Positions 20,047 through 55,972 of a stretch of 58,499 nt of DNA are shown here, one piece after another. The notes under the pieces are model-generated. The model saw only the letters and a list, made by a program, of their open reading frames with translations. It ran no database searches and was not told the origin of the DNA. The DNA is taken from positions 1 through 58,499 of IMG/VR virus record IMGVR_UViG_3300027777_000004, one strand, 5' to 3'. Within the stretch, counting starts at the first letter, position 1. Each line of letters opens with the position of its first letter. Source of the DNA: a virus (taxonomy: Duplodnaviria; Caudoviricetes). A program made the translations under genes and the position numbers.

Positions 20047-20886
20047 TCATTTGGCCCTGCGAATAGAGGGTGGCCCCTCTGGCATGTCCAACAAAGTTTG
20101 GTCGAGGTAGTGCTTCCAGACCAGCTTGGGATCGGAGTGCGAGAGGTAGTCGCTGGCTTGCCCCGGCGACTTGCGTTGCACATAGGTTGCACAGCTACGC
20201 CGCAGAAACTTCGACGAGCCGCTGAATTTATGCTCTGCCAGAAATCGCTGCCACATGACGAAGGCCCGCCGTCGCGGCACTGCCCATTTGAATAGCGTCC
20301 CATCCGGTGAGTGCTTGAATAGCAGCCCCACCTCTTCGCCCGTCTCCTCTGACACGGGGCGAATGGTCGTCTTGCCCGTCTTTTGCGCCGTGACTGCCAC
20401 GCAATTATTTCTAAAGTTCTTGATGGTTAGGGCGTGAACGTCCGCAAACCTCAACCCAGTATCGAAGGCCAAGCCGATCCACGCCGGGATGACCATCCTC
20501 CGGGTGACATGAGGCACCCGGAGGCTCACGGGTGTCTCGTCCCGTGCAGCCACCGCAATCATCCGCTCCAGCGTCGTCATGCTCCATGCCTCCACAGGGC
20601 GGGCCCTCACCTTGATCCGGTGTAGCCGCAGAGGGGGGCTCTCAGACCACTCGCGGTCAAAAGCCCACTTCCACAACGTCAGAATTTCTCTTCTGATGTT
20701 GTGTTTTGTGGCGGGAGTTAGCTGCATTTCTGCCAGGGCAGTGTTGACCGTCGTCGCGGACAGTTGACGAACTAGATGCAAACCGTATGCTGCGAACTTG
20801 CGGGCGGTTCTGCATAGATTTGCCCTATAGCCGCCGCTTGCTGCGTTCTCCGCAGAATAAGCGACCGCCAGCTCAGTGAGCGTCAT
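20047..20886 (-). CDS. int: Tyrosine recombinase / integrase
   Basis: DTGLRFAD (Arg I), QKTGK (Lys), KFLRR (HxLR box variant), LSHSD...KHY (His, catalytic Tyr); adjacent tRNA fragment; start ATG 20886 inferred. Confidence 0.88.
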   Translation of the reverse strand: MTLTELAVAYSAENAASGGYRANLCRTARKFAAYGLHLVRQLSATTVNTALAEMQLTPATKHNIRREILTLWKWAFDREWSESPPLRLHRIKVRARPVEAWSMTTLERMIAVAARDETPVSLRVPHVTRRMVIPAWIGLAFDTGLRFADVHALTIKNFRNNCVAVTAQKTGKTTIRPVSEETGEEVGLLFKHSPDGTLFKWAVPRRRAFVMWQRFLAEHKFSGSSKFLRRSCATYVQRKSPGQASDYLSHSDPKLVWKHYLDQTLLDMPEGPPSIRRAK

Positions 20887-21049
20887 GGAGGATGATGTGC
20901 CAGTGCCAAGGACGGGAGGAGCGAATTCTGCGCGGACAGAAGAGTGTGTGGACATAGCTTCGTCTTTCGAGGGGACTGACCCCTGCCAAAAAACCTTAGA
21001 CCCACCAAAGACAGGATGTTCCAGCGGAACACGCCCCCTTGGGGGGACG

Positions 21050-21952
21050 GTGGAACAGGGCGGTTTCCATCAGCTTCCCAAGCTGGATGTCGAGGGTTCG
21101 AGTCCCTTCGCCCGCTTTTTGTTTCCATCGCGGGGAAATTTTATTTCCCTGACGGTAGAGGAGTCAAGCCTCTATCACACTTGGCCGGAACCCAGTTGCT
21201 CCGACCTAAAGTTACTGGACGAAAGTCCCGTTGCTTACTACGAGCGCAAGGTCGCACAGACCGCGCCGCCCCGCACTGGCGAGGCTCTGTCCTACGGGAC
21301 ACTTTTGCATTCGTGGGCCGAGATCGGTGACGAGGCATTTTGGGCGCGGGCTGTCATCTGCCCCAACCAGTACGCCACAAGCACTGGCCTGTGGGGCAAG
21401 GTTACCGATGCGTGGGCGAGAGAGTTGCCGCCCGATGCTCTGCCGCTCGCGCCCGCTGACGGGCACAAGCTCAGGGCCCAGACCCTCCAAGTCCTTGCCA
21501 ACCCCGCCGCCCGCAAGCTGCTGACAACGGCCATCGTCAAAGAGGCCAACGTCCGGTGGCGTTGGAACGGACATCTAGTACGGTGCCGGTTCGACGGGGC
21601 GACAGAGGAGTGCTGGTGGGACATCAAGACCACCCGCGACCAGAAGCCGTTGGAGTCTTTTTGGCAGAGCGTCAAGACGTTCCGCTACGACATGCAAGCG
21701 GCCATGTATGAGTCAGCCATGGTGGCATGTGGCTGGGACTACCACCCGCTTGTTTTCATAGCCACATCAACAACGTACCCGTACCACTGCTCTGTGGTGA
21801 CGCTGCCGCCCTCTGTGACTGCCAGAGGGAAGGCCCGCTGTCTGCGGCTCCTCGACGAGCTTGAGACGCGCATCGACTTCGACCACTGGTTGCCCAGCGA
21901 CTACGGGCAAATCCAAGAACTTCCCTGCCCCCGTTTCTTCAAGGAGAGCTAG
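21050..21952 (+). CDS. PD-(D/E)XK exonuclease (RecE/Exo VIII-like); start uncertain
   Basis: YH...SCSDLK, GTLLH, RCRFD...WDIKTT, YDMQAAMY motifs. Confidence 0.8.
   Translation: MEQGGFHQLPKLDVEGSSPFARFLFPSRGNFISLTVEESSLYHTWPEPSCSDLKLLDESPVAYYERKVAQTAPPRTGEALSYGTLLHSWAEIGDEAFWARAVICPNQYATSTGLWGKVTDAWARELPPDALPLAPADGHKLRAQTLQVLANPAARKLLTTAIVKEANVRWRWNGHLVRCRFDGATEECWWDIKTTRDQKPLESFWQSVKTFRYDMQAAMYESAMVACGWDYHPLVFIATSTTYPYHCSVVTLPPSVTARGKARCLRLLDELETRIDFDHWLPSDYGQIQELPCPRFFKES
21068..21116 (+). other. attP: Putative attP core: 3' two-thirds of a tRNA-Gly(CCC)
   Basis: Anticodon arm TCAGC-TTCCCAA-GCTGG, T arm GAGGG-TTCGAGT-CCCTT, acceptor 3' strand CGCCCGC-T; non-canonical 5' half; ~180 bp upstream of int. 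Confidence 0.8.
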
Positions 21953-44118: not shown

Positions 44119-44286
44119 GGCCAGCAGGCAGGCAGGCCACGCCACGCCATTGCAGGCAGGCCACAGCACAGCAGGCACAGCATCGGCCAGCAGGCAGCAT
44201 CGCACAGCAGGCAGCATCGCACAGCAGGCAGGCAGGCATCGGCCAGCAGGCAGCATATGGGCGCAGTTGTGCGACACTCACAGGCA
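44119..44286 (+). repeat. Oriented short-repeat array (about 13 x CAGGC; 17-bp tandem CAGCAGGCAGCATCGCA)
   Basis: Directly visible; non-coding and T-poor. Confidence 0.85.
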
Positions 44287-44475
44287 ACATTTTGGAACGC
44301 TGAACCGGAACCGGTTCCATGGGCCTTGACGCAAACCCTTTGCAGGAGCGGACTTACGACACGACCGCACCCCGGACCCCCCCGCCGCCGCACCGACCCC
44401 ACTCACATACCCCCTCCAAAATAAATCCAAATTAGCAAAGTGGTTAGTGCCATACCCATTTGATTAACACCCCCT

Positions 44476-44513
44476 TGCGAAACGGTGCCTCAAGAGCCTG
44501 CGAAACGGTGCCT
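44476..44513. repeat. Two 15-bp direct repeats TGCGAAACGGTGCCT with a 23-bp period
   Basis: Copies at 44476-44490 and 44499-44513. Confidence 0.85.
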
Positions 44514-44628
44514 GTTCCATATTCTGGTATCTGGAACAAATGCAGTATTGGGCCGAGTTAGTAGGGTTCGCTGTATATGGCCACACTTCTTGCTGGTAGC
44601 TCTTGACTGCGTCGTGACAATGACGCTC

Positions 44629-44877
44629 ATGACTATGCCAGACGAGAGATACCGTTCGCTGCTGTATGTGCGGGATTTCCTCTATGACCTGCTCGACCCC
44701 GAGATGACAGAGAGAGTCCCCGCAGCGGTGAGACAGCGGGCCAGAAGGATGCTACGCCACTACCCATTGCAACATGAGCTAGAGCTACTAGCCATGAAGG
44801 CCCCCGAGCTACTGGACGGTACGGGCCCCATGCTGTTCACAGACACAACCGCAGCAGCGGGACCGGGACCGGACTGA
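44629..44877 (+). CDS. BPSL0761-like small phage protein
   Basis: MTMPDERYRS...RVPAAVRQRARRMLRHYP. Confidence 0.7.
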   Translation: MTMPDERYRSLLYVRDFLYDLLDPEMTERVPAAVRQRARRMLRHYPLQHELELLAMKAPELLDGTGPMLFTDTTAAAGPGPD

Positions 44878-44926
44878 TAAACCGACACCCCTTACCCCCG
44901 CTGCTGCGGTTCTCTAGGAGCTACCC

Positions 44927-45127
44927 ATGACTGACAACGCTGATAGCAGTCTGGCTATCAACAAGGACGTTCTTGAAAGGGCTACGGCCCACCTAGCATC
45001 CCTGCCGCCGCATCTGCGGGACAGGTACTCGGCACAGTTGATTCTTGCCCTAGCCACTGAGGTAGACCGGCTGCGGCTCAAGTGCTGGCAGTGGAGTAAT
45101 CACGCACACAGGATGAGCGACAAATGA
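44927..45127 (+). CDS. Hypothetical protein
   Basis: AGGAG RBS. Confidence 0.55.
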   Translation: MTDNADSSLAINKDVLERATAHLASLPPHLRDRYSAQLILALATEVDRLRLKCWQWSNHAHRMSDK

Positions 45128-45309
45128 CAGACACCCCCGAGACTACAGACATCCTTGAGAGACTCCGACCTCTCCCTGACCGTCTAGCCAAAGAGGCTTT
45201 GGACGAGATCAAGCGGCTGCGGATGGAGCTGTCTATTGCCGAGGGTCAAAGGAACAAGCTACAGGGCGACGTAGTTGAACTACTCACTAGGAATTCGAGG
45301 ACGACATGA
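45124..45309 (+). CDS. Hypothetical protein (DILERLR...EIKRLR type)
   Basis: ATGA coupling at both ends. Confidence 0.55.
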   Translation: MTDTPETTDILERLRPLPDRLAKEALDEIKRLRMELSIAEGQRNKLQGDVVELLTRNSRTT

Positions 45310-45599
45310 GCGATGACAACTTTTACGATCCCAAGCCCCCTACGCTGGAGGAATGTGCGCGGGTAGTTAAATCCTTGACTCTGGGCATAGCCTTTCTGAA
45401 GCGGGAAAGCCTGCGTAGCTCAATGGCAGAGCAGCAGTTTTGTAAACTGCCGGTTGCTGGTTCAAGTCCAGCCGTAGGCTCTTTGACCCCCGAGGAGCGG
45501 GAAGCGATTCAATGGTTTTCGCAGTTGTCATATGGCGAGGGTGGAAGAGTGCCAGACTACGCCGCCACCCTCCGATCCCTACTAGAGAGGCTGAAATGA
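45306..45599 (+). CDS. Hypothetical protein hosting a tRNA gene
   Basis: ATGA coupling at both ends; GAGG RBS; C-terminal LTPEEREAI...AATLRSLLERLK motif. Confidence 0.55.
   Translation: MSDDNFYDPKPPTLEECARVVKSLTLGIAFLKRESLRSSMAEQQFCKLPVAGSSPAVGSLTPEEREAIQWFSQLSYGEGGRVPDYAATLRSLLERLK
45409..45480 (+). tRNA. tRNA-Thr(TGT), no encoded CCA
   Basis: GCCTGCG/CGTAGGC acceptor, GCTC-AATGGCA-GAGC D arm, GCAGT-TTTGTAA-ACTGC anticodon arm, GCTGG-TTCAAGT-CCAGC T arm. Confidence 0.92.
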
Positions 45600-45862
45600 C
45601 TGACATCACAGACCGGCTTCGCAGTTGGTGCTACACCCCGACCAGTGGTACGGCCCAAGACCTCATGGACGAGGCTGCGGTGGCGATTGAGCGGCTGCGT
45701 GACGCGCTCGACGGCACACTCGACCACCGCGACCTGCTGACGGTGAAGGTCAGTCAATGGGAAGCTGTGACAAAACCTAGGCCCATAGAGATAAGTGCCG
45801 AGGTTTCGTTACACCCCAAAAGTGACCGCATCTACGTGTCAGGCCAAGATTCCGACGACTAA
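45596..45862 (+). CDS. Hypothetical protein (MTDITDRLR...EAAxxIERLR type)
   Basis: GAGG RBS, ATGA coupling. Confidence 0.6.
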   Translation: MTDITDRLRSWCYTPTSGTAQDLMDEAAVAIERLRDALDGTLDHRDLLTVKVSQWEAVTKPRPIEISAEVSLHPKSDRIYVSGQDSDD

Positions 45863-45965
45863 TTGAAGTCTCGGCCCGACAGTCGGCCATATACCTAGTA
45901 GAGATTCCGACCCGCACCCAGTAGCTATCTAGCTACGCATCACAACAGAGAGGGGGTGATCGAAG

Positions 45966-46166
45966 ATGGCGTACCCGAAAAAGAAGAAGAGCGGCTCCGG
46001 TGGCATGTGCAAGGACGGCAAGCCCGTAGTTGGTGGCCAGCCACCCGACCTGCGAGCGAAGCTCATGTCTGCGTATAAGGCCATGGAGTACGGCGGCGGC
46101 ACCAAGACCCCGACAGAGAACAACAAGCCCGTTTATCCCACCAAGGCCAAGCAGAAGGCGAAGTGA
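45966..46166 (+). CDS. Small basic protein
   Basis: Lys-rich; GGGGG RBS. Confidence 0.5.
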   Translation: MAYPKKKKSGSGGMCKDGKPVVGGQPPDLRAKLMSAYKAMEYGGGTKTPTENNKPVYPTKAKQKAK

Positions 46167-46172
46167 GATGAA

Positions 46173-46589
46173 ATGCCACGACCCACTAGCTTCAAGACGT
46201 TGCAGGAATACGTATGGCAGAAGTTGCCACGGCGTCGGACGATGGTGGGCAAGGAAGCTGTATTTGACGCTGTATCTGTGGCTGTTCAAGAATGGCCCAG
46301 CCAGAAGTTTGAGGCGTTCGCGGATAGCGAACAGGGTGAGGCTTCTGGTGAAGAGACTGCTGCGCTCAAAGAGCTAGAGGGCAATATCAAGCGGCAGATG
46401 GACTTGGTCTACGGCGACCGCAAGTTCGGTTTCGTCTGGGTCATAGCCCTCCAGTTCATCCTCCCGATCATCATTCGTCTCATCTACGATTGGTGGAAAA
46501 AGCGGAAGGAGAACAGTGACCTCCTATCGTCATGGCAATCCAAGCTAGTGGGCGACGACTCTAACCCTCCTTCGGTGGACAATGGCTGA
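46173..46589 (+). CDS. Hypothetical membrane protein
   Basis: FGFVWVIALQFILPIII transmembrane segment. Confidence 0.6.
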   Translation: MPRPTSFKTLQEYVWQKLPRRRTMVGKEAVFDAVSVAVQEWPSQKFEAFADSEQGEASGEETAALKELEGNIKRQMDLVYGDRKFGFVWVIALQFILPIIIRLIYDWWKKRKENSDLLSSWQSKLVGDDSNPPSVDNG

Positions 46590-48372
46590 ACCAGACAATG
46601 CCCAGAGGGCTGGCCAAGTATTGACGGACTTGGTCAGACGCCCCGGCGAGAGCCTCGGGTCATACTTGGTGCGGGCTCAGTCCATGACCAAGCCCCAGTA
46701 CCAGCGTCGGGCACCCGATGACCGTACTGCACTGGCCAAGATGACAGGGGATATGACCACTGGCATCAGCGACAATGAGCTTGAAGATTGGTACATGACT
46801 CTGGATGAGAAGACGATCCCCGAGCATGAGCAGTTCAAGGAGAATGTCGCCCGCACCCTAGGCGAGCAGGTCTTTACCATTCCCCCCGTAGACGAATCTG
46901 GCGAGGGAGATGGTTATGTGCCAGCCAACTTCGACCAATTCTTTATGCGAACGATTCTTCCGCAGATAGAGGCCGATTACGGCACTGCTGTCGATGCCCC
47001 GCAAGTGCAAGAGCATATTATGGCCCGACTCATGGGGGAGCCGCACGACTTCCAAGACGAGAACATCAAGAAATACACCACTATGGTGCTGGACAACCTC
47101 AAAGAGGGTCAGTCCATCGATCCGTTCCCGGCTATGAGCCAAGAAGAGGCGGACGACGCCTACGCCAAGTACGGAACGAAGGCCCGCTTCTACATTGGCC
47201 AAGAGAATAGGGACAACTTTGCCCGCAAGAAAGCCTACGGGCTACTGCAAACCTTCGCAGATGGCGAACATGCCCCACCTCTCCAAGGGCTACCCTCTGC
47301 AATAGCGGGCGCGGCGGGGCAGATGTATACGAATGTCGCTGATGTCTTCGCCCCGCGAGACCTTTTTGACCCGCAGCCGGAATTTGTCTCGAACGACGGC
47401 TCGAAGGATGGATACGAGAATGCCCGCGCAGCTACCGATGCCCTCGGCGGGCCGCTCGGGAGGATCAGACAGGCCAACAAGTTCTACGAAAGGGCCACCG
47501 AAGACCCCGAATCTGTACGCGATCCCGTCACTGGGGCCAATTATGCAGACCAATCCAACCTAGGCATGGTTGGAATGGGCAACCATGGGGCAAAGTCGGA
47601 CGGCTACTACCAGTACGCCACCAATGAGCTGAAGAATCTGTTCGACAACACCAAGTTCACAGGTGGGCTAGACCCACTGATGGGATTTACCCACCAGAGC
47701 AACCAGATACAGCCCCCAGAAGTGATGAGTGAACTGTCGCAATATGAGCGCAATAGCAACAGGACGACTCCCATCGTCCCGGGCGGTCGCTATGTCTCTG
47801 AAACTGACAATAAAGACACCAGCCCCGCCGAAGAAGCCGCAGATTTGTTCAAAGGCTACAAGGATCACACGGCAGATGCGTTTAATCGGGGGTATAGGGA
47901 GCGAACGGGCATGAACCCGACCCAATTCCAGAGCAGCATGGGTAATATCCTGCGAGAAACCCTCACAGACCCCGCGACACTTGCTGGAACGGCCCTTTCG
48001 GCAGGGTTTGGTGCCCTGTTTGGTGGCGTGAAGGGGGCGGCAACGCCTGTTACCCTAGGTCTGGGCAGGGAATTACTAGAAGAAGGCGGCTTTACGGGGG
48101 CTTTAGAGTCCCTTTTGACCGGCCCGAGCTACTTTACAGAGCCTCTAGAAGGGGCTGGATATAGCCCTTTTGACCCCCAGAACAAGGCTTTAGAGGCCAT
48201 CCAGCAGTCCCGAGAACAGGCCGATGCTAGTGCTAAAGTCGCTGCGGCTCTGATGCGACAGCAGCGCAGCCCCATAGGTCAGTCACTCCTGCCCGAAGAG
48301 CAGCCAGCACTGCCCCGCCGCAGGCCCTCTATGAACCAGATGCCGCCCAAGTCCAGCCTACGGGATTTGTAG
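46582..48372 (+). CDS. Hypothetical protein, putative internal virion protein
   Basis: 596 aa; Gly/Ala hydrophobic segment TDPATLAGTALSAGFGALFGG. Confidence 0.6.
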   Translation: MAEPDNAQRAGQVLTDLVRRPGESLGSYLVRAQSMTKPQYQRRAPDDRTALAKMTGDMTTGISDNELEDWYMTLDEKTIPEHEQFKENVARTLGEQVFTIPPVDESGEGDGYVPANFDQFFMRTILPQIEADYGTAVDAPQVQEHIMARLMGEPHDFQDENIKKYTTMVLDNLKEGQSIDPFPAMSQEEADDAYAKYGTKARFYIGQENRDNFARKKAYGLLQTFADGEHAPPLQGLPSAIAGAAGQMYTNVADVFAPRDLFDPQPEFVSNDGSKDGYENARAATDALGGPLGRIRQANKFYERATEDPESVRDPVTGANYADQSNLGMVGMGNHGAKSDGYYQYATNELKNLFDNTKFTGGLDPLMGFTHQSNQIQPPEVMSELSQYERNSNRTTPIVPGGRYVSETDNKDTSPAEEAADLFKGYKDHTADAFNRGYRERTGMNPTQFQSSMGNILRETLTDPATLAGTALSAGFGALFGGVKGAATPVTLGLGRELLEEGGFTGALESLLTGPSYFTEPLEGAGYSPFDPQNKALEAIQQSREQADASAKVAAALMRQQRSPIGQSLLPEEQPALPRRRPSMNQMPPKSSLRDL

Positions 48373-49541: not shown

Positions 49542-50711
49542 ATGGCCTCACCTACAGACTGGGCGCGCGTTATTGCAACAACGATTGTCAACCATCTTCG
49601 TGAAGAAGAGGTGGCGACGTTCCGCAAGTTCAAGGTGTTCGCCTTGCTGGAGTCCAGCGGCAACATTGTAATGAATCAGAGTGGAAGGGGATTCGACTGG
49701 AACGTCCGCTGGAAAAATGCAAGTGTGACAGGTAACACTGGTGATACACCGCGTACCTTCAGCCGCATCAATATGTTCAAGCGGCCCCAGCTTCCTTGGA
49801 AAGGCTTTGTTGCCACCGACGCCATCATGCGGCGCGAAATGCTGGAGAACCGGGGTCAGCAGGCACTTGTTGACGTTGCTGGCAAGATGGCCGAGCGTCT
49901 GCAAGAGTCGCTTGAGCAGCACCTCGCCTACCAGCCGTACAAAGATGGTTCTCTGAATGATAACGACTTCCACGGGCTGGAATCGTTCCTCGGGTTCGAT
50001 GGTACTATCAACGAAGACGATGCAACGTCGCCGTTCGCCAAGCGCAACTCGGGCAACACCAGCGACCGCTATGGCTACCCGTCGGATACGTTCGCTGATC
50101 TGAACACTCAGCTCGGCGTGTACGGTGGTGGCCGAGTCGCTGGCCCTGCTACTCCCCTCTCCACCACTCCGAAATGGCCGAACCATGCGGTTGATCCAGA
50201 GGCGGATTTTTGGTCGCCGGTAATTGTAAACTATAATGCGTCGGGCCTTAACAAGGCTGCCGCCGCTAGCCGAAGCTGGGCGAAGAATTGCACCTTTGCG
50301 ATGCGCGAAGGAATTCATCAGACCAAGAGAAATGATTCTGTGCAGGGGCAGATCGACATGATCGCTCTGGACAGGTCGCTGTATATCCAGTTCCTCAACA
50401 CTTACCGCGACAATGAGCGGCTGGTGGTGTCGAAGGAGAACGGCCTCAAGGCTCTGGGCTTCAATGACACCGTCACCCTCGACGGCGTGGAAGTAACAAG
50501 TGAGTATGCTGTTCCCGCAGGCCGAGGCTACGGCTTCAGCATCGGCAACATGCAGCTCCGATGCCTCGAATCGCAGCTCATGGTGGCCGAGGGCCCCTTC
50601 TTCGACGAAGAGACTCAAGCGTACCGATATGCTTGCTCGACACTCGGCAACTTCTATTTTAAGAGTCCGAGAAATTTCTTTGCCCTCGCCCCTGTTACGG
50701 CTGAAGCCTGA
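49542..50711 (+). CDS. Major capsid protein
   Basis: 389 aa after the scaffold; HK97-fold-like pattern (MLENRG...LQESLEQHL, FHGLES, TLDGVEV). Confidence 0.8.
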   Translation: MASPTDWARVIATTIVNHLREEEVATFRKFKVFALLESSGNIVMNQSGRGFDWNVRWKNASVTGNTGDTPRTFSRINMFKRPQLPWKGFVATDAIMRREMLENRGQQALVDVAGKMAERLQESLEQHLAYQPYKDGSLNDNDFHGLESFLGFDGTINEDDATSPFAKRNSGNTSDRYGYPSDTFADLNTQLGVYGGGRVAGPATPLSTTPKWPNHAVDPEADFWSPVIVNYNASGLNKAAAASRSWAKNCTFAMREGIHQTKRNDSVQGQIDMIALDRSLYIQFLNTYRDNERLVVSKENGLKALGFNDTVTLDGVEVTSEYAVPAGRGYGFSIGNMQLRCLESQLMVAEGPFFDEETQAYRYACSTLGNFYFKSPRNFFALAPVTAEA

Positions 50712-53613: not shown

Positions 53614-53946
53614 ATGTCAAACGAATCTGAAGAAGTTAGCTGGCGTATGCCGCAGCCCAGCATCGGGGACGCGGTGCTATTTGCACCAGATTACAACAGC
53701 ATGAACCGGCCCATACTGGGTCTTATCGTCAGCCCCCCGGGTGATAGTGCTGTGACTCTGGCGGTATTGTCACCTAACGGCATGATGATCCGGTCGGGGG
53801 TCAAGCACATTGATGACCCGGGCTGGAAGCAGGACAACTTCTGGAATGACCTCGGGGTGTGGGATTTCGCCCCCGTCACCAAGTCTATTCGGGCACTCAT
53901 GGAAAGAGAGAAGGTGAGAAATGGTCGAGAAACTGGAGCCAAGTAG
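53614..53946 (+). CDS. Hypothetical protein
   Basis: Between TerL and portal; GGGAG RBS. Confidence 0.6.
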   Translation: MSNESEEVSWRMPQPSIGDAVLFAPDYNSMNRPILGLIVSPPGDSAVTLAVLSPNGMMIRSGVKHIDDPGWKQDNFWNDLGVWDFAPVTKSIRALMEREKVRNGRETGAK

Positions 53947-55972
53947 TCCGCTGCGGCAGATCACCAGCACTTGGGTAGACAAGCTCAAGGCGGCGATGGA
54001 CTACAAGAAACCGTTCTCAGAGGACGCCAAAGAAGCGGGCATGTTCTTTGACGGCGACCACAACTGGATGTGGAAGGACTCCTACAGTCGTGGCGAACGC
54101 GGCTACAACTCCAGCATCGCCCCGCCTTCTTTCCGCATGCAGTTGAATAAGGTGTTCGAGCTGGTGGAGATTTTCGGGGCAGTCATTTACCACCGCAATC
54201 CGGTGCGTACTGTGACAGTCATGGAGCATCCGAACCTCCCGCCCGATGCGTTTGGTATCGACCCCACGCAGCCGATGGACCCCAACGCTCTCACGCCCGA
54301 GCAGCAGCAGCTACTTGGCATGGCGCAAGAGCAGCAGTCGGCCCAGAAGAAAAGGGCCATCGCGTCCCAGCTACTCAATGCGTATTTGAACTGGACGCCC
54401 CAAGAGTTGGACTTGAAGCGGCAGGCCAAGAAGGTGGTCAACGAAGCCCTCATCAAGGGCATGGGGGTGTTTTGGACAGAGTTAGTCACCCTGCCCACCT
54501 CGGGCGACGATCAAGAACGACCGCTTCGTATGGTGGGCAGCTACTACGATACGGTCGATAACCTGTTGATTGACCCCGACTTCGACAACATGGATGACAT
54601 GCTGTGGTGCGCTCGCAAGTGCGTCAAGCCGTTGCTCGAAGTCGCAGAGACATACGGCATCCCGCCCGATGAGCTGCGAAAACACCTAGAGGACAGCAAG
54701 AGCCGGTTGTCCAAAGAGCCCAAGAACACGAAGAAGAAGCAGACCAATGAGCTTCTGACCTACTACAAAATCTGGTCGAAGACCGGCATCGGGGACCGCT
54801 TCAAGGACAGCCCGAAAGAGAACCGGGGTGTGTTCGACAACCTGGGCCCCCATGTCTATCTGATTGTCTGTGAAGGTATCCCGTATCCGCTCAATCTGCC
54901 GCCCGAAGTGATGCAGGAGCCCGTAGACGAGCAACTCGGGTTTCCTCAGTCCATCGTCACCCGTACTGCATGGCCGGTGCCGTACTACGCCGATACGCAG
55001 GGCTGGCCCTTCACGCCTCTCTACTTCCATCCCAAGCCCGGGTATGCGTGGCCCATCAGCCATATCCGTCCGGGGATCGGGGAGTTGCGGCTGTTGAATT
55101 GGGCAATGAGTTTCTTGGCCACCCGTATCGCAACGTCCTGCGAAACAATGGTGGCGGTGCAGAAGGCAGCAGACCAGACGCTCAAAGACCAGATTCTCGC
55201 CCCGAGTGAGGGTGGTTTCAAGATTGTTGAACTGTCCGAATTGGTGGGCAGACGCATCGAAGATGTCATGTCAGTGTTCCAGTTCCCGCAGGTTACGCGG
55301 GACTTATATGACATTATCCAGAGCGTCGGGGAGATGTTCGCCCAACGCACCGGTTTGTCGGAGTTGGTCTATGGTTACACCCGTAACCAATTTCGTAGTG
55401 CAGCAGAGGCGAACATCAAGCAGGAGAACATCAGTGTTCGGCCTGACTCCATGGCGAACGACCTCGAAGACGCCATGAGTCTTCTGGCTCGCCGGGAGAG
55501 CCTCGCCGCCCGCTGGCTACTTGAGCCCCAAGACATCACCCCGGTGCTTGGCCCGCTGGGGGCACTGGCGTGGAGCCAGAACGTCTCGTCTCAGAGCCTT
55601 GTGGCACTGACTAGGGACTTCCTATACCGCGTTGAGGCTGGCAGTGCCCGCAAGCCCAACAAGGCCACCAAGGTCGAACAGATGCAGCTATCTGTGCAGA
55701 CGTTGGGGCCGATCCTGTCGGGGCTAGTTGGGTCTGGAATCGTTGGGCCATTCAATGCCCTAATCCGAGATTGGGCCGAGAGCCTCGACATCAATGCCGA
55801 GCCGTATCTTGTGCCCGAACCGCAACCCCCTGCCGCTGCGCCGCCGCCGTCCTCCCCTTCGGTTGAGCAGGCTGCGGCTGCGGGGGGCGATCCTGCCATG
55901 CCCAGCGAATTACCGCCCGACCCGGGGCCACCACCGCAAGTCCCGCCCGAGCTTGATCCCGCAGCGGCGTGA
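53921..55972 (+). CDS. Portal protein
   Basis: 683 aa after TerL; EALIKGMGV, LLIDPD, RTGLSELVYG...SAAEA, Pro-rich tail. Confidence 0.8.
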   Translation: MVEKLEPSSPLRQITSTWVDKLKAAMDYKKPFSEDAKEAGMFFDGDHNWMWKDSYSRGERGYNSSIAPPSFRMQLNKVFELVEIFGAVIYHRNPVRTVTVMEHPNLPPDAFGIDPTQPMDPNALTPEQQQLLGMAQEQQSAQKKRAIASQLLNAYLNWTPQELDLKRQAKKVVNEALIKGMGVFWTELVTLPTSGDDQERPLRMVGSYYDTVDNLLIDPDFDNMDDMLWCARKCVKPLLEVAETYGIPPDELRKHLEDSKSRLSKEPKNTKKKQTNELLTYYKIWSKTGIGDRFKDSPKENRGVFDNLGPHVYLIVCEGIPYPLNLPPEVMQEPVDEQLGFPQSIVTRTAWPVPYYADTQGWPFTPLYFHPKPGYAWPISHIRPGIGELRLLNWAMSFLATRIATSCETMVAVQKAADQTLKDQILAPSEGGFKIVELSELVGRRIEDVMSVFQFPQVTRDLYDIIQSVGEMFAQRTGLSELVYGYTRNQFRSAAEANIKQENISVRPDSMANDLEDAMSLLARRESLAARWLLEPQDITPVLGPLGALAWSQNVSSQSLVALTRDFLYRVEAGSARKPNKATKVEQMQLSVQTLGPILSGLVGSGIVGPFNALIRDWAESLDINAEPYLVPEPQPPAAAPPPSSPSVEQAAAAGGDPAMPSELPPDPGPPPQVPPELDPAAA

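What the first reader, a model, noticed from the sequence alone, without database searches (positions are those of the whole stretch)
45306..45599. Intact tRNA-Thr(TGT) nested in frame and same-sense inside a translationally coupled protein gene
Seen: a canonical 72-nt cloverleaf (45409-45480; a multiple of three, with no in-frame stop) lies in the middle of a 97-aa ORF. The ORF is ATGA-coupled to neighbours at both ends, has an RBS, and ends in LTPEEREAI...AATLRSLLERLK, a motif I recall from small aquatic-phage proteins. Inference: a dual-coding locus where RNase P and 3' processing of the tRNA would cut the mRNA, acting as a timer or processing site, or a tRNA inserted without breaking its host gene.
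Basis: partly seen in the sequence, partly recalled or inferred. Interest (0 to 1): 0.75.

Follow-up and report, generated by a model that had tools for sequence, protein, structure and literature searches.

The report
Phage tRNA gene nested inside a protein gene
A working-looking threonine tRNA gene sits in frame in the middle of a small phage protein gene, so the same 72 bases probably serve both as a tRNA and as a spacer in the protein, an arrangement so far predicted only for one bacterial gene and some mitochondria.

Summary
A canonical tRNA-Thr(UGU) lies at 45409-45480 (ARAGORN; Rfam 68.6 bits). It sits same-sense in the 97-codon ORF 45306-45599, which has ATGA overlaps at both ends. The ORF uses the tRNA's only stop-free frame.

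An open frame through a tRNA is not rare in itself: 6 of 8 control phage tRNAs have one. The case rests on the flanks, which are real protein modules.
- The C-terminal LT.EEREA...LLER module occurs in 30 IMG/VR loci, none with a tRNA.
- It is the only copy in this complete genome.
- It has dN/dS of about 0.1 against a tRNA-less homologue.
- It begins one codon after the tRNA, with no conserved start of its own.

The tRNA lies in the same frame between varied modules in 4 of 5 DNA lineages and in 17 predicted-protein clusters. It shows compensatory stem changes. One lineage has a frameshift upstream but keeps the tRNA.

Best reading: a dual-use segment in a permissive linker, spread by module shuffling at an 'RLR' junction. 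tRNA maturation and read-through translation would compete for each transcript. No expression data exist. The closest precedent is tRNA-Sec nested in selB (PMC8124441).

The parts
45409..45480 (+). tRNA-Thr(UGU) gene, 72 nt including discriminator U. No encoded CCA. Anticodon TGT at 45441-45443.
   Evidence: ARAGORN. Rfam RF00005 at 68.6 bits. 21 of 21 stem pairs are standard in all 4 DNA variants, with one compensatory A-U to G-C pair and one G.U to G-C pair.
45306..45599 (+). 97-codon ORF that runs through the tRNA. The tRNA overlaps codons 35-59.
   Evidence: Contigs of three other runs are identical. Homologues P0002, P0003, P0005 and P0047 have the same N-terminal module followed by the tRNA peptide.
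45297..45301 (+). Shine-Dalgarno-like GAGGA, 4 nt upstream of ATG 45306.
   Evidence: Read from the sequence.
45306..45407 (+). N-terminal module (MSDDNFYDPKPPTLEECARVVKSLTLGIAFLKRE). Predicted helix.
   Evidence: Conserved in P0002, P0003, P0005, P0006 and P0047. P0006 has it joined to a B module without a tRNA. AlphaFold2 gives mean pLDDT 88-93 for residues 11-30.
45483..45596 (+). C-terminal 'B module' (LTPEEREAIQWFSQLSYGEGGRVPDYAATLRSLLERLK). It is the only copy in this genome.
   Evidence: B-module HMM, E 1.1e-28, and the only strong hit in six frames of the window. dN 0.086, dS 0.89 against tRNA-less L014. 30 IMG/VR loci carry the module.
45124..45309 (+). Upstream small gene with an 'A module' (..ILERLR..EALDEIKRLR..). 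Its stop overlaps the start of the host ORF.
   Evidence: Its homologue in P0017 carries the tRNA directly after ..EALDEIK|RLR.
45596..45862 (+). Downstream small gene (MTDITDRLRSW..AIERLR..VTKPRPIE..SDRIYVS). Its start overlaps the host ORF's stop. The GAGAGG at 45585-45590, inside the LLER codons, lies where its ribosome-binding site would be.
   Evidence: In relative L001 the homologue of this gene is the one that hosts the tRNA.

Best explanation
A genuine tRNA-Thr(UGU) gene occupies the linker between two modules of a small phage accessory protein. The upstream module is a helical N-terminal or 'A' module that usually ends ..E.RLR. The downstream module is the C-terminal 'B' module, LT.EEREA...LR.LLER. 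The tRNA is read in its only stop-free frame.

Shown: the tRNA evolves under RNA-structure constraint, and the flanks evolve under protein constraint.

Inferred:
- The 72 nt are dual-use. Ribosomes starting at ATG 45306 read through them as a roughly 24-residue, poorly structured spacer and make the 97-aa protein. The B module has no conserved start of its own.
- On other copies of the same polycistronic transcript, RNase P and 3' processing excise the tRNA. That leaves a non-stop upstream fragment and a downstream fragment without a start.
- Each transcript therefore yields either the tRNA or the full-length protein.

The arrangement arose and spread by the module shuffling typical of this gene cluster. 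Breakpoints sit at the 'RLR' codons. The first 7 nt of the tRNA (GCCTGCG) themselves encode the L and R of that motif and differ at one base from the tRNA-less RLR codons.
For: tRNA is real and constrained:
- (68.6 bits).
- All 84 stem cells are paired in 4 DNA variants, with one compensatory pair.
- In predicted proteins, the two codons that face each other in the anticodon stem co-vary as Q..L, R..P and L..Q. These fit CAG:CTG, CGG:CCG and CTG:CAG. This is my inference from the amino acids; no DNA was seen for those proteins.
- The tRNA is 72 of 72 identical between the window and L001. Neighbouring proteins of the two phages are 66% and 51% identical.

Flanks are protein:
- B-module dN/dS is 0.096 over 36 codons and 0.038 over the 26-codon core, with dS about 0.9, against tRNA-less L014.
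- The window has a single B module.
- 30 B-module loci carry no tRNA (0 of 30). Many have a direct ..RLR|LT.EERE.. junction.
- P0006 joins the same N module to a B module without a tRNA.

No independent start:
- Only one codon separates the tRNA from the L of LT.
- That L codon is TTG in the window and L006 but CTC in L001.

Same frame in many contexts:
- 4 of 5 distinct DNA lineages, from 8 loci, are open on both sides.
- 12 of 30, then 4 of 11 fetched, then 1 of 2 fetched predicted proteins carry the tRNA peptide internally.

Other support:
- Permissive linker: AlphaFold2 pLDDT is below 50 at residues 45-54, between helices.
- No promoter-like or terminator-like site lies near the tRNA.
- The same competition model was proposed for selB/tRNA-Sec (PMC8124441, sections 2.6 and 3, read).
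Against: - No RNA or protein data exist. Translation across the tRNA and tRNA maturation are both inferred.
- One lineage (L006, L009, L011, L013) has an apparent 1-nt deletion that places TGA 16 codons upstream of the tRNA. Its downstream module is degenerate and its tRNA intact. The tRNA can therefore persist without the ORF.
- Protein-database hits can only show open frames, so they carry ascertainment bias.
- Stop-free frames through tRNAs are common (6 of 8 controls).
- dN/dS sums both branches. The B module could have arrived recently by recombination.
- In the window a TTG (45483) preceded by AGG could start the B module separately.
- The structure model has only moderate confidence (mean pLDDT 68.6, pTM 0.29).
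Confidence: 0.58

Rival explanations
1. The ORF is a neutral passenger. Only the tRNA matters. It landed in, or recombined into, a dispensable accessory gene. The frame is still open because the event or the recombination is recent. The fusion protein is not made in useful amounts or has no function.
For: The L006/L009/L011/L013 lineage keeps an intact tRNA with a broken upstream frame and a degenerate downstream module. Open frames through tRNAs are common (6 of 8). The family has no Pfam or PHROG match, so its function is unknown. The cluster recombines heavily.
Against: The only B module of this complete genome lies behind the tRNA. It shows dN/dS of about 0.1 at dS of about 0.9. 17 protein clusters with diverged tRNA peptides, for example P0045, still have open frames with intact modules on both sides.
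Confidence: 0.25
2. There are two translation units. The upstream reading is incidental, and the B module is made on its own from an internal start: TTG 45483 with AGG in the tRNA 3' end, or the ATG in the D-loop. This might happen from the processed downstream fragment.
For: TTG follows the tRNA in the window and in L006. In L006 the longest ORF begins at the D-loop ATG. P0028 and P0035 start only 5-6 codons before the tRNA.
Against: The L codon is CTC in L001, so no start codon is conserved there. There is no good Shine-Dalgarno sequence. Without a stop, ribosomes from ATG 45306 would read through anyway. P0006 shows the N and B modules as one protein without a tRNA.
Confidence: 0.1
3. It is not a working tRNA. 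It is a tRNA-like element kept as an RNA processing signal, a recombination or attachment site, or a pseudogene.
For: No CCA is encoded and there are no expression data. All four combinations of the two variable stem pairs occur among 4 variants. That fits recombination inside the tRNA.
Against: It gives a full-length 68.6-bit match. All stems are intact in every variant, with a compensatory change. G1-C72, C2-G71 and the UGU anticodon are present (I recall these as Thr identity elements in E. coli). The likely attP is elsewhere: a tRNA-Gly 3' fragment beside the integrase.
Confidence: 0.05

Closest known systems
tRNA-Sec (selC) nested inside the selB ORF of Alphaproteobacteria (Mukai 2021, PMC8124441; abstract and sections 2.6 and 3 read)
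   Same: An entire tRNA lies same-sense inside a protein ORF. The ORF's end overlaps the start of the next ORF. The proposed logic is the same: tRNA processing gives a non-stop mRNA plus a downstream fragment without a leader, so tRNA and protein are alternatives. That case is also bioinformatic only.
   Different: There the tRNA lies in a C-terminal extension after the functional protein, and the protein binds that very tRNA. Here an ordinary elongator tRNA lies mid-protein with a conserved, selected module behind it, in a phage. It has no visible functional link to the host protein, and it appears in many different host-gene contexts.
tRNA genes inside mitochondrial protein genes (e.g. tRNA-Lys in cox1 of Armadillidium vulgare, as cited in PMC8124441 section 3; original paper not read)
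   Same: A whole tRNA lies in direct orientation inside a coding region.
   Different: Those are extreme-compaction organelle genomes with reduced tRNAs. Here the tRNA is a full 72-nt canonical cloverleaf in a 58.5-kb phage.
Ordinary phage-encoded tRNA genes
   Same: A canonical cloverleaf without encoded CCA (many phage tRNAs lack it: recalled), carried inside an operon. The cognate ACA codon makes up 16% of Thr codons in 24 long ORFs.
   Different: Phage tRNAs are normally intergenic. Examples here are L002 and L044/L045. Annotation practice treats tRNA/ORF overlap as an error (recalled).
Phage attP sites built on tRNA genes
   Same: tRNA sequence in a temperate phage genome. An integrase is present.
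   Different: attP carries a partial 3' tRNA segment next to the integrase. In this genome that description fits 21058-21114, not the Thr tRNA, which is complete and lies 24 kb away.

Membership tests
tRNA (Rfam RF00005), isotype Thr(UGU) | Cloverleaf with 7/4/5/5-bp stems that scores above the family threshold | tested here: met
   68.6 bits against a gathering score of 29. 21 of 21 pairs are standard in 4 variants.
tRNA (Rfam RF00005), isotype Thr(UGU) | Anticodon UGU in a 7-nt loop with U33 and a purine at position 37 | tested here: met
   ARAGORN calls anticodon tgt. The loop is TTTGTAA or TTTGTGA.
tRNA (Rfam RF00005), isotype Thr(UGU) | Structure maintained by compensatory change across relatives | tested here: met
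   Pair 28-40 is A-U in 2 variants and G-C in 2. Pair 5-67 is G.U in 2 and G-C in 2. With only 4 sequences the shuffle control is not significant (79 of 500 shuffles reach the observed score).
tRNA (Rfam RF00005), isotype Thr(UGU) | Thr identity elements G1-C72 and C2-G71 (recalled from E. coli work) | tested here: met
   Pairs 1-71 (GC) and 2-70 (CG) in alignment numbering are invariant. That these are the identity elements is recalled, not tested.
tRNA (Rfam RF00005), isotype Thr(UGU) | Processed, CCA-tailed and aminoacylated in the host | not testable with these tools
   No RNA run holds the locus. The host is unknown.
Nested tRNA inside a protein ORF (selB/selC type, PMC8124441) | Entire tRNA, same strand, inside an ORF without a stop | tested here: met
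Nested tRNA inside a protein ORF (selB/selC type, PMC8124441) | The ORF around the tRNA is a real protein gene | tested here: met
   B module: HMM E 1.1e-28 and dN/dS 0.096. N module: conserved in P0002, P0003, P0005, P0006 and P0047.
Nested tRNA inside a protein ORF (selB/selC type, PMC8124441) | Functional partnership between the host protein and the nested tRNA | tested here: not met
   The host protein has no Pfam or PHROG family. The same family occurs without any tRNA in 30 of 30 loci. No link is visible.
Unnamed small phage 'A-linker-B' protein family | C-terminal LT.EER.A...LR.LLER module, often after ..E.RLR | tested here: met
tRNA-based attP site | Partial tRNA 3' segment adjacent to the integrase | tested here: not met
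   The Thr tRNA is complete and lies about 24 kb from the integrase (20047-20955). The tRNA-Gly fragment at 21058-21114 fits instead.

The most novel reading that the evidence does not exclude
The tRNA is an in-frame, portable cassette. It is bounded by the short conserved motifs of an abundant small-protein family: ..E.RLR, whose L and R codons are formed by its own acceptor stem, and LT.EERE. It moves between paralogous and homologous phage genes by recombination at those motifs. Only insertions in the one open frame survive, because the downstream module must still be translated. The resulting transcript is a true bifunctional RNA in which ribosome traffic and RNase P compete. The phage's supply of tRNA-Thr(UGU) and of the accessory protein would then be reciprocally coupled to the translational state of the infected cell. 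In this segment amino-acid covariation is dictated by RNA base pairing.
Probability: 0.3. Interest if true: 0.85.

Novelty: new variant of a known kind. Interest (0 to 1): 0.7.

Why it matters
Annotation practice assumes that tRNA genes and protein genes do not overlap, so pipelines either drop the ORF or miss the tRNA. This locus shows a canonical elongator tRNA kept for a long time inside a selected protein gene of a virus, in many gene contexts.

- It gives a compact natural system for testing how translation and tRNA processing compete on one RNA.
- It is an example of protein sequence whose covariation is imposed by RNA pairing.
- It suggests a route, recombination at family-wide motifs, by which phages pass tRNA genes around.
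- It extends the single bacterial precedent (selB/tRNA-Sec, prediction only) to phages and to a mid-protein position.

My four literature searches found no phage case. The library lacks most subscription journals, so this is not proof of absence.

Tried and rejected
Searches that found nothing useful:
- Cultured phages: blastn of 44400-46600 hit only tRNA-like stretches of 60-odd nt. tblastn of the ORF found nothing.
- Bacterial and archaeal genomes: the tRNA T-arm/acceptor pattern gave 0 hits, and the B-module alignment gave 0 confirmed relatives. There is therefore no host clue and no prophage copy.
- Pfam and PHROGs: no family for the ORF or its small neighbours.
- Expression: no RNA holder was listed.
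- A 5'-half tRNA pattern in viral contigs added only unrelated intergenic tRNAs, L044 and L045.
- L002 is an unrelated low-GC phage with an intergenic Thr tRNA.

Ideas tested and dropped:
- The alternative linkers of tRNA-less homologues are not detectable tRNA relics. Six such loci (29.8 kb) gave 0 Rfam matches at E up to 1, and ARAGORN gave 0 of 30.
- The second ARAGORN call, tRNA-Gly(ccc) at 21042-21117, is not a second nested tRNA. It scores 25.9 bits (below the gathering score of 29) and lacks a D arm.
- DNA for P0006, the N-linker-B homologue without a tRNA, could not be fetched.

Tools not available or not used:
- No supplementary files were consulted.
- No complex-prediction job was sent.

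Full report
**What is there**

The window is a complete viral record of 58,499 bp with direct terminal repeats. PHROG matches identify an integrase (20047-20955, minus strand), a helicase, a major head protein (49542-50711) and a portal protein (53921-55972). It is therefore a temperate tailed phage. The runs that hold it are freshwater metagenomes.

At 45409-45480 lies a canonical tRNA-Thr with anticodon UGU. ARAGORN calls it, and Rfam RF00005 matches it at 68.6 bits, E 6.8e-13, over the whole model. It is the only full tRNA in the genome.

The ORF 45306..45599 (97 aa) runs straight through the tRNA on the same strand.
- Its ATG overlaps the TGA of the upstream ORF 45124..45309.
- Its TGA overlaps the ATG (45596) of the downstream gene.
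- GAGGA lies 4 nt before its ATG.
- Of the three frames through the tRNA, only this one lacks a stop.
- Contigs from three other runs match with no differences across the ORF, so the frame is not an assembly error.
- The consensus scan found no promoter-like or terminator-like site close to the tRNA. It most likely sits inside a polycistronic transcript.

**Is it more than chance?**

The open frame alone is not. Among 8 tRNAs in three unrelated phage loci, 6 have at least one stop-free frame, usually at the same offset. None has 30 or more open codons on both sides.

The weight comes from the flanks.

The 38 residues after the tRNA (LTPEEREAIQWFSQLSYGEGGRVPDYAATLRSLLERLK) form a recurrent protein module, which I call B.
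- A search of 5.8 billion proteins returned 30 hits, most of which share this module at up to 92% identity behind quite different N-termini.
- An alignment-based scan of IMG/VR returned 30 loci with the module. None of the 30 has any tRNA within 3 kb.
- In several of these loci B follows directly on a helical 'A' module that ends ..E.RLR, giving ..RLR|LT.EERE.. (L032/L036/L037, L035, L039, L043).
- Six tRNA-less loci also gave no Rfam match at E up to 1. The other linkers are therefore not detectable tRNA relics.

The 34 residues before the tRNA are conserved in P0002, P0003, P0005 and P0047, each with the tRNA peptide. They are also conserved in P0006, where the same N-terminal module is joined to a B module by an unrelated linker. 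N and B thus belong to one protein, and the tRNA sits in its linker.

**Selection on both layers**

RNA layer:
- Four DNA variants of the tRNA (window and L001; the L006 group; L010; L012) keep 84 of 84 stem cells paired.
- One pair changes on both sides (A-U to G-C in the anticodon stem). One changes from G.U to G-C in the acceptor stem.
- With four sequences the shuffle control is not significant (79 of 500).
- In the predicted proteins, the two codons that face each other in the anticodon stem read Q..L, R..P or L..Q (P0001, P0005, P0004, P0038, P0045). P0002 and P0003 read L-I..N-Q.
- These pairs fit complementary codons CAG:CTG, CGG:CCG and CTG:CAG. This is my inference from the amino acids, because I could not fetch their DNA.
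- The tRNA is 72 of 72 identical between the window and its syntenic relative L001. Neighbouring proteins of the two phages are 66% and 51% identical.

Protein layer:
- Against the tRNA-less homologue L014, the window's B module has 21 nucleotide differences. Fourteen are at third codon positions.
- This gives dN 0.086, dS 0.89 and a ratio of 0.096. The ratio is 0.038 over the 26-codon core.
- A B-module HMM finds only this one copy in six frames of the complete genome (E 1.1e-28). The next hit has E 0.005.
- Only one codon separates the tRNA from the L of 'LT'. That L codon is TTG in the window and in L006 but CTC in L001. No start codon is conserved there.
- If the module is made at all, the simplest route is read-through from the upstream start.
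- AlphaFold2 (30-sequence alignment, mean pLDDT 68.6, pTM 0.29) predicts a helix over residues 14-46, a stretch with pLDDT below 50 at 45-54, then helices at 62-74 and 82-96. This is compatible with the tRNA-coded residues forming a loose spacer. The model has only moderate confidence.

**How widespread, and in what contexts**

DNA census. An exact-pattern scan for the T arm plus 3' acceptor found 2 loci in viral contigs, 5 in metagenome contigs and 0 in 185,579 species genomes. With the window this makes 8 loci in 5 distinct contexts.
- The window, L001, L010 and L012 are open on both sides. L012 runs off its contig downstream.
- L006, L009, L011 and L013 are identical around the tRNA. They have TGA 16 codons upstream. 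Compared with the window and with P0002/P0003, this looks like a 1-nt deletion in ..INF(L)KRE... Their downstream module is degenerate and the tRNA is intact.

Protein level. These searches can only show open frames. The tRNA peptide is internal to the ORF in 12 of 30 hits, 4 of the 11 proteins I fetched out of 23 hits and 1 of 2 fetched from the 'longer' search. That is 17 clusters, counting the window's own.

The upstream partner differs widely:
- the N module;
- several different A modules;
- a junction after ..LKCWQC in P0024;
- a start only 5-6 codons before the tRNA in P0028 and P0035.

The downstream partner also differs:
- at least eight B variants;
- a long linker before B in P0031 and P0047;
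- no B at all in P0030, where the VTK.MPKEIS..SDRIYVSS tail follows directly.

In L001 the tRNA sits in the homologue of the window's downstream gene (45596-45862), not of the window's host ORF. One contig of run X5 joins 45128 directly to 45405, a P0024-like context.

Breakpoints between modules in this cluster fall at the ..RLR codons with or without the tRNA. Compare the window genes at 45124 and 45596 with L001 4444-4698 and 4695-5297. The first 7 nt of the tRNA, GCCTGCG, encode the L and R of that motif. The tRNA-less genes read GGCTGCG at the same place. All four combinations of the two variable stem pairs occur among the four tRNA variants, which fits recombination within or around the tRNA.

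**Mechanism**

The statement under Best explanation gives my preferred mechanism.
- Shown: the nested position, the frame, the constraint on the RNA and on the flanking protein modules, and the variety of contexts.
- Inferred from established knowledge of tRNA maturation: RNase P cuts at the 5' end, 3' trimming follows, and CCA is added because none is encoded. Excision would sever the message, leaving a non-stop upstream piece and a downstream piece without a start. A translating ribosome would unfold the tRNA.
- Each transcript would therefore give either the tRNA or the 97-aa protein.

This is the model Mukai proposed for selB/tRNA-Sec (PMC8124441, sections 2.6 and 3). A 'timer' function is possible but nothing here tests it.

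As to why the phage carries this tRNA, ACA is 16% of Thr codons in 24 long ORFs. Without a host this says little.

**Rivals**

- The passenger reading (0.25) is kept alive by the frameshifted lineage.
- The separate-start reading (0.1) rests on TTG 45483.
- The non-tRNA reading (0.05) is weak, given the score and the compensatory change.

**Known relatives and novelty**

The closest precedent is the predicted nesting of tRNA-Sec in selB. [quoted passage not shown]

This case differs in four respects.
- The genome is a phage.
- The tRNA is an ordinary elongator.
- The tRNA lies mid-protein, ahead of a selected module.
- It appears in many host-gene contexts, with no visible tRNA-protein partnership.

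Four full-text searches found no phage case. Two listed papers that I checked by passage (PMC4939782, PMC9202365) were irrelevant. I rate this a new variant of a known kind, with interest 0.7.

**Limits**

- There are no expression data and no host.
- Only 5 DNA contexts were available.
- DNA behind most protein hits could not be fetched.
- No supplementary files were consulted.

Noticed in passing
window 21042-21117 (Rfam match 21058-21114), beside 20047-20955 (minus strand): ARAGORN's 'tRNA-Gly(ccc)' scores only 25.9 bits in Rfam (gathering score 29) and lacks a D arm. It lies about 100 nt from a tyrosine-integrase-like gene (phrog_1). It is probably the attP core, carrying the 3' part of a host tRNA-Gly(CCC) gene, which could help identify the host.
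   Followed up: partly
window 45124-45862 compared with L001 4444-5297: The small genes of this cluster are mosaics whose breakpoints fall at the ..E.RLR codons. For example, the segment DAL..L..RDLL.VKVSQWEA is in the window's downstream gene but in a different gene in L001. The RLR-coding sequence looks like a recombination joint for the whole cluster.
   Followed up: partly
tRNA variants: window 45409-45481, L006 6381-6453, L010 1170-1242, L012 1212-1284: The two variable stem pairs (28-40 and 5-67) occur in all four combinations among four variants. That suggests recombination inside the tRNA, or recurrent mutation.
   Followed up: no
window 45585-45590: The conserved C-terminal LLER codons of the B module (GAG AGG) lie where the Shine-Dalgarno sequence of the ATGA-coupled downstream gene would be. 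Part of the module's nucleotide conservation may serve translational coupling.
   Followed up: no
window 44178-44256: An imperfect 17-nt tandem repeat (4.4 copies, consensus CAGCATCGGCCAGCAGG) lies in a stretch without convincing genes, just upstream of the small-gene cluster. It may be a regulatory or origin-like repeat.
   Followed up: no
proteins P0006, P0008, P0011 and P0017; loci L026, L038, L042: A second recurrent linker, roughly ..EKR.NA.T.R..T...GSVQ..G.., appears between modules in many family members. It gave no Rfam match, and its role is unknown.
   Followed up: partly
L015-L020, L024/L025, L030/L031, L034, L041, L042: A third recurrent linker has two cysteines (CP.V.G..T..C.L..(F/L)TLTD), possibly a small structured or metal-binding insert.
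   Followed up: no
L044 (reverse strand), tRNA-Asn and tRNA-Thr: Two tRNAs of an unrelated phage contig have a stop-free frame with a long open stretch on one side (74 and 72 codons). I did not examine whether real genes abut them.
   Followed up: no
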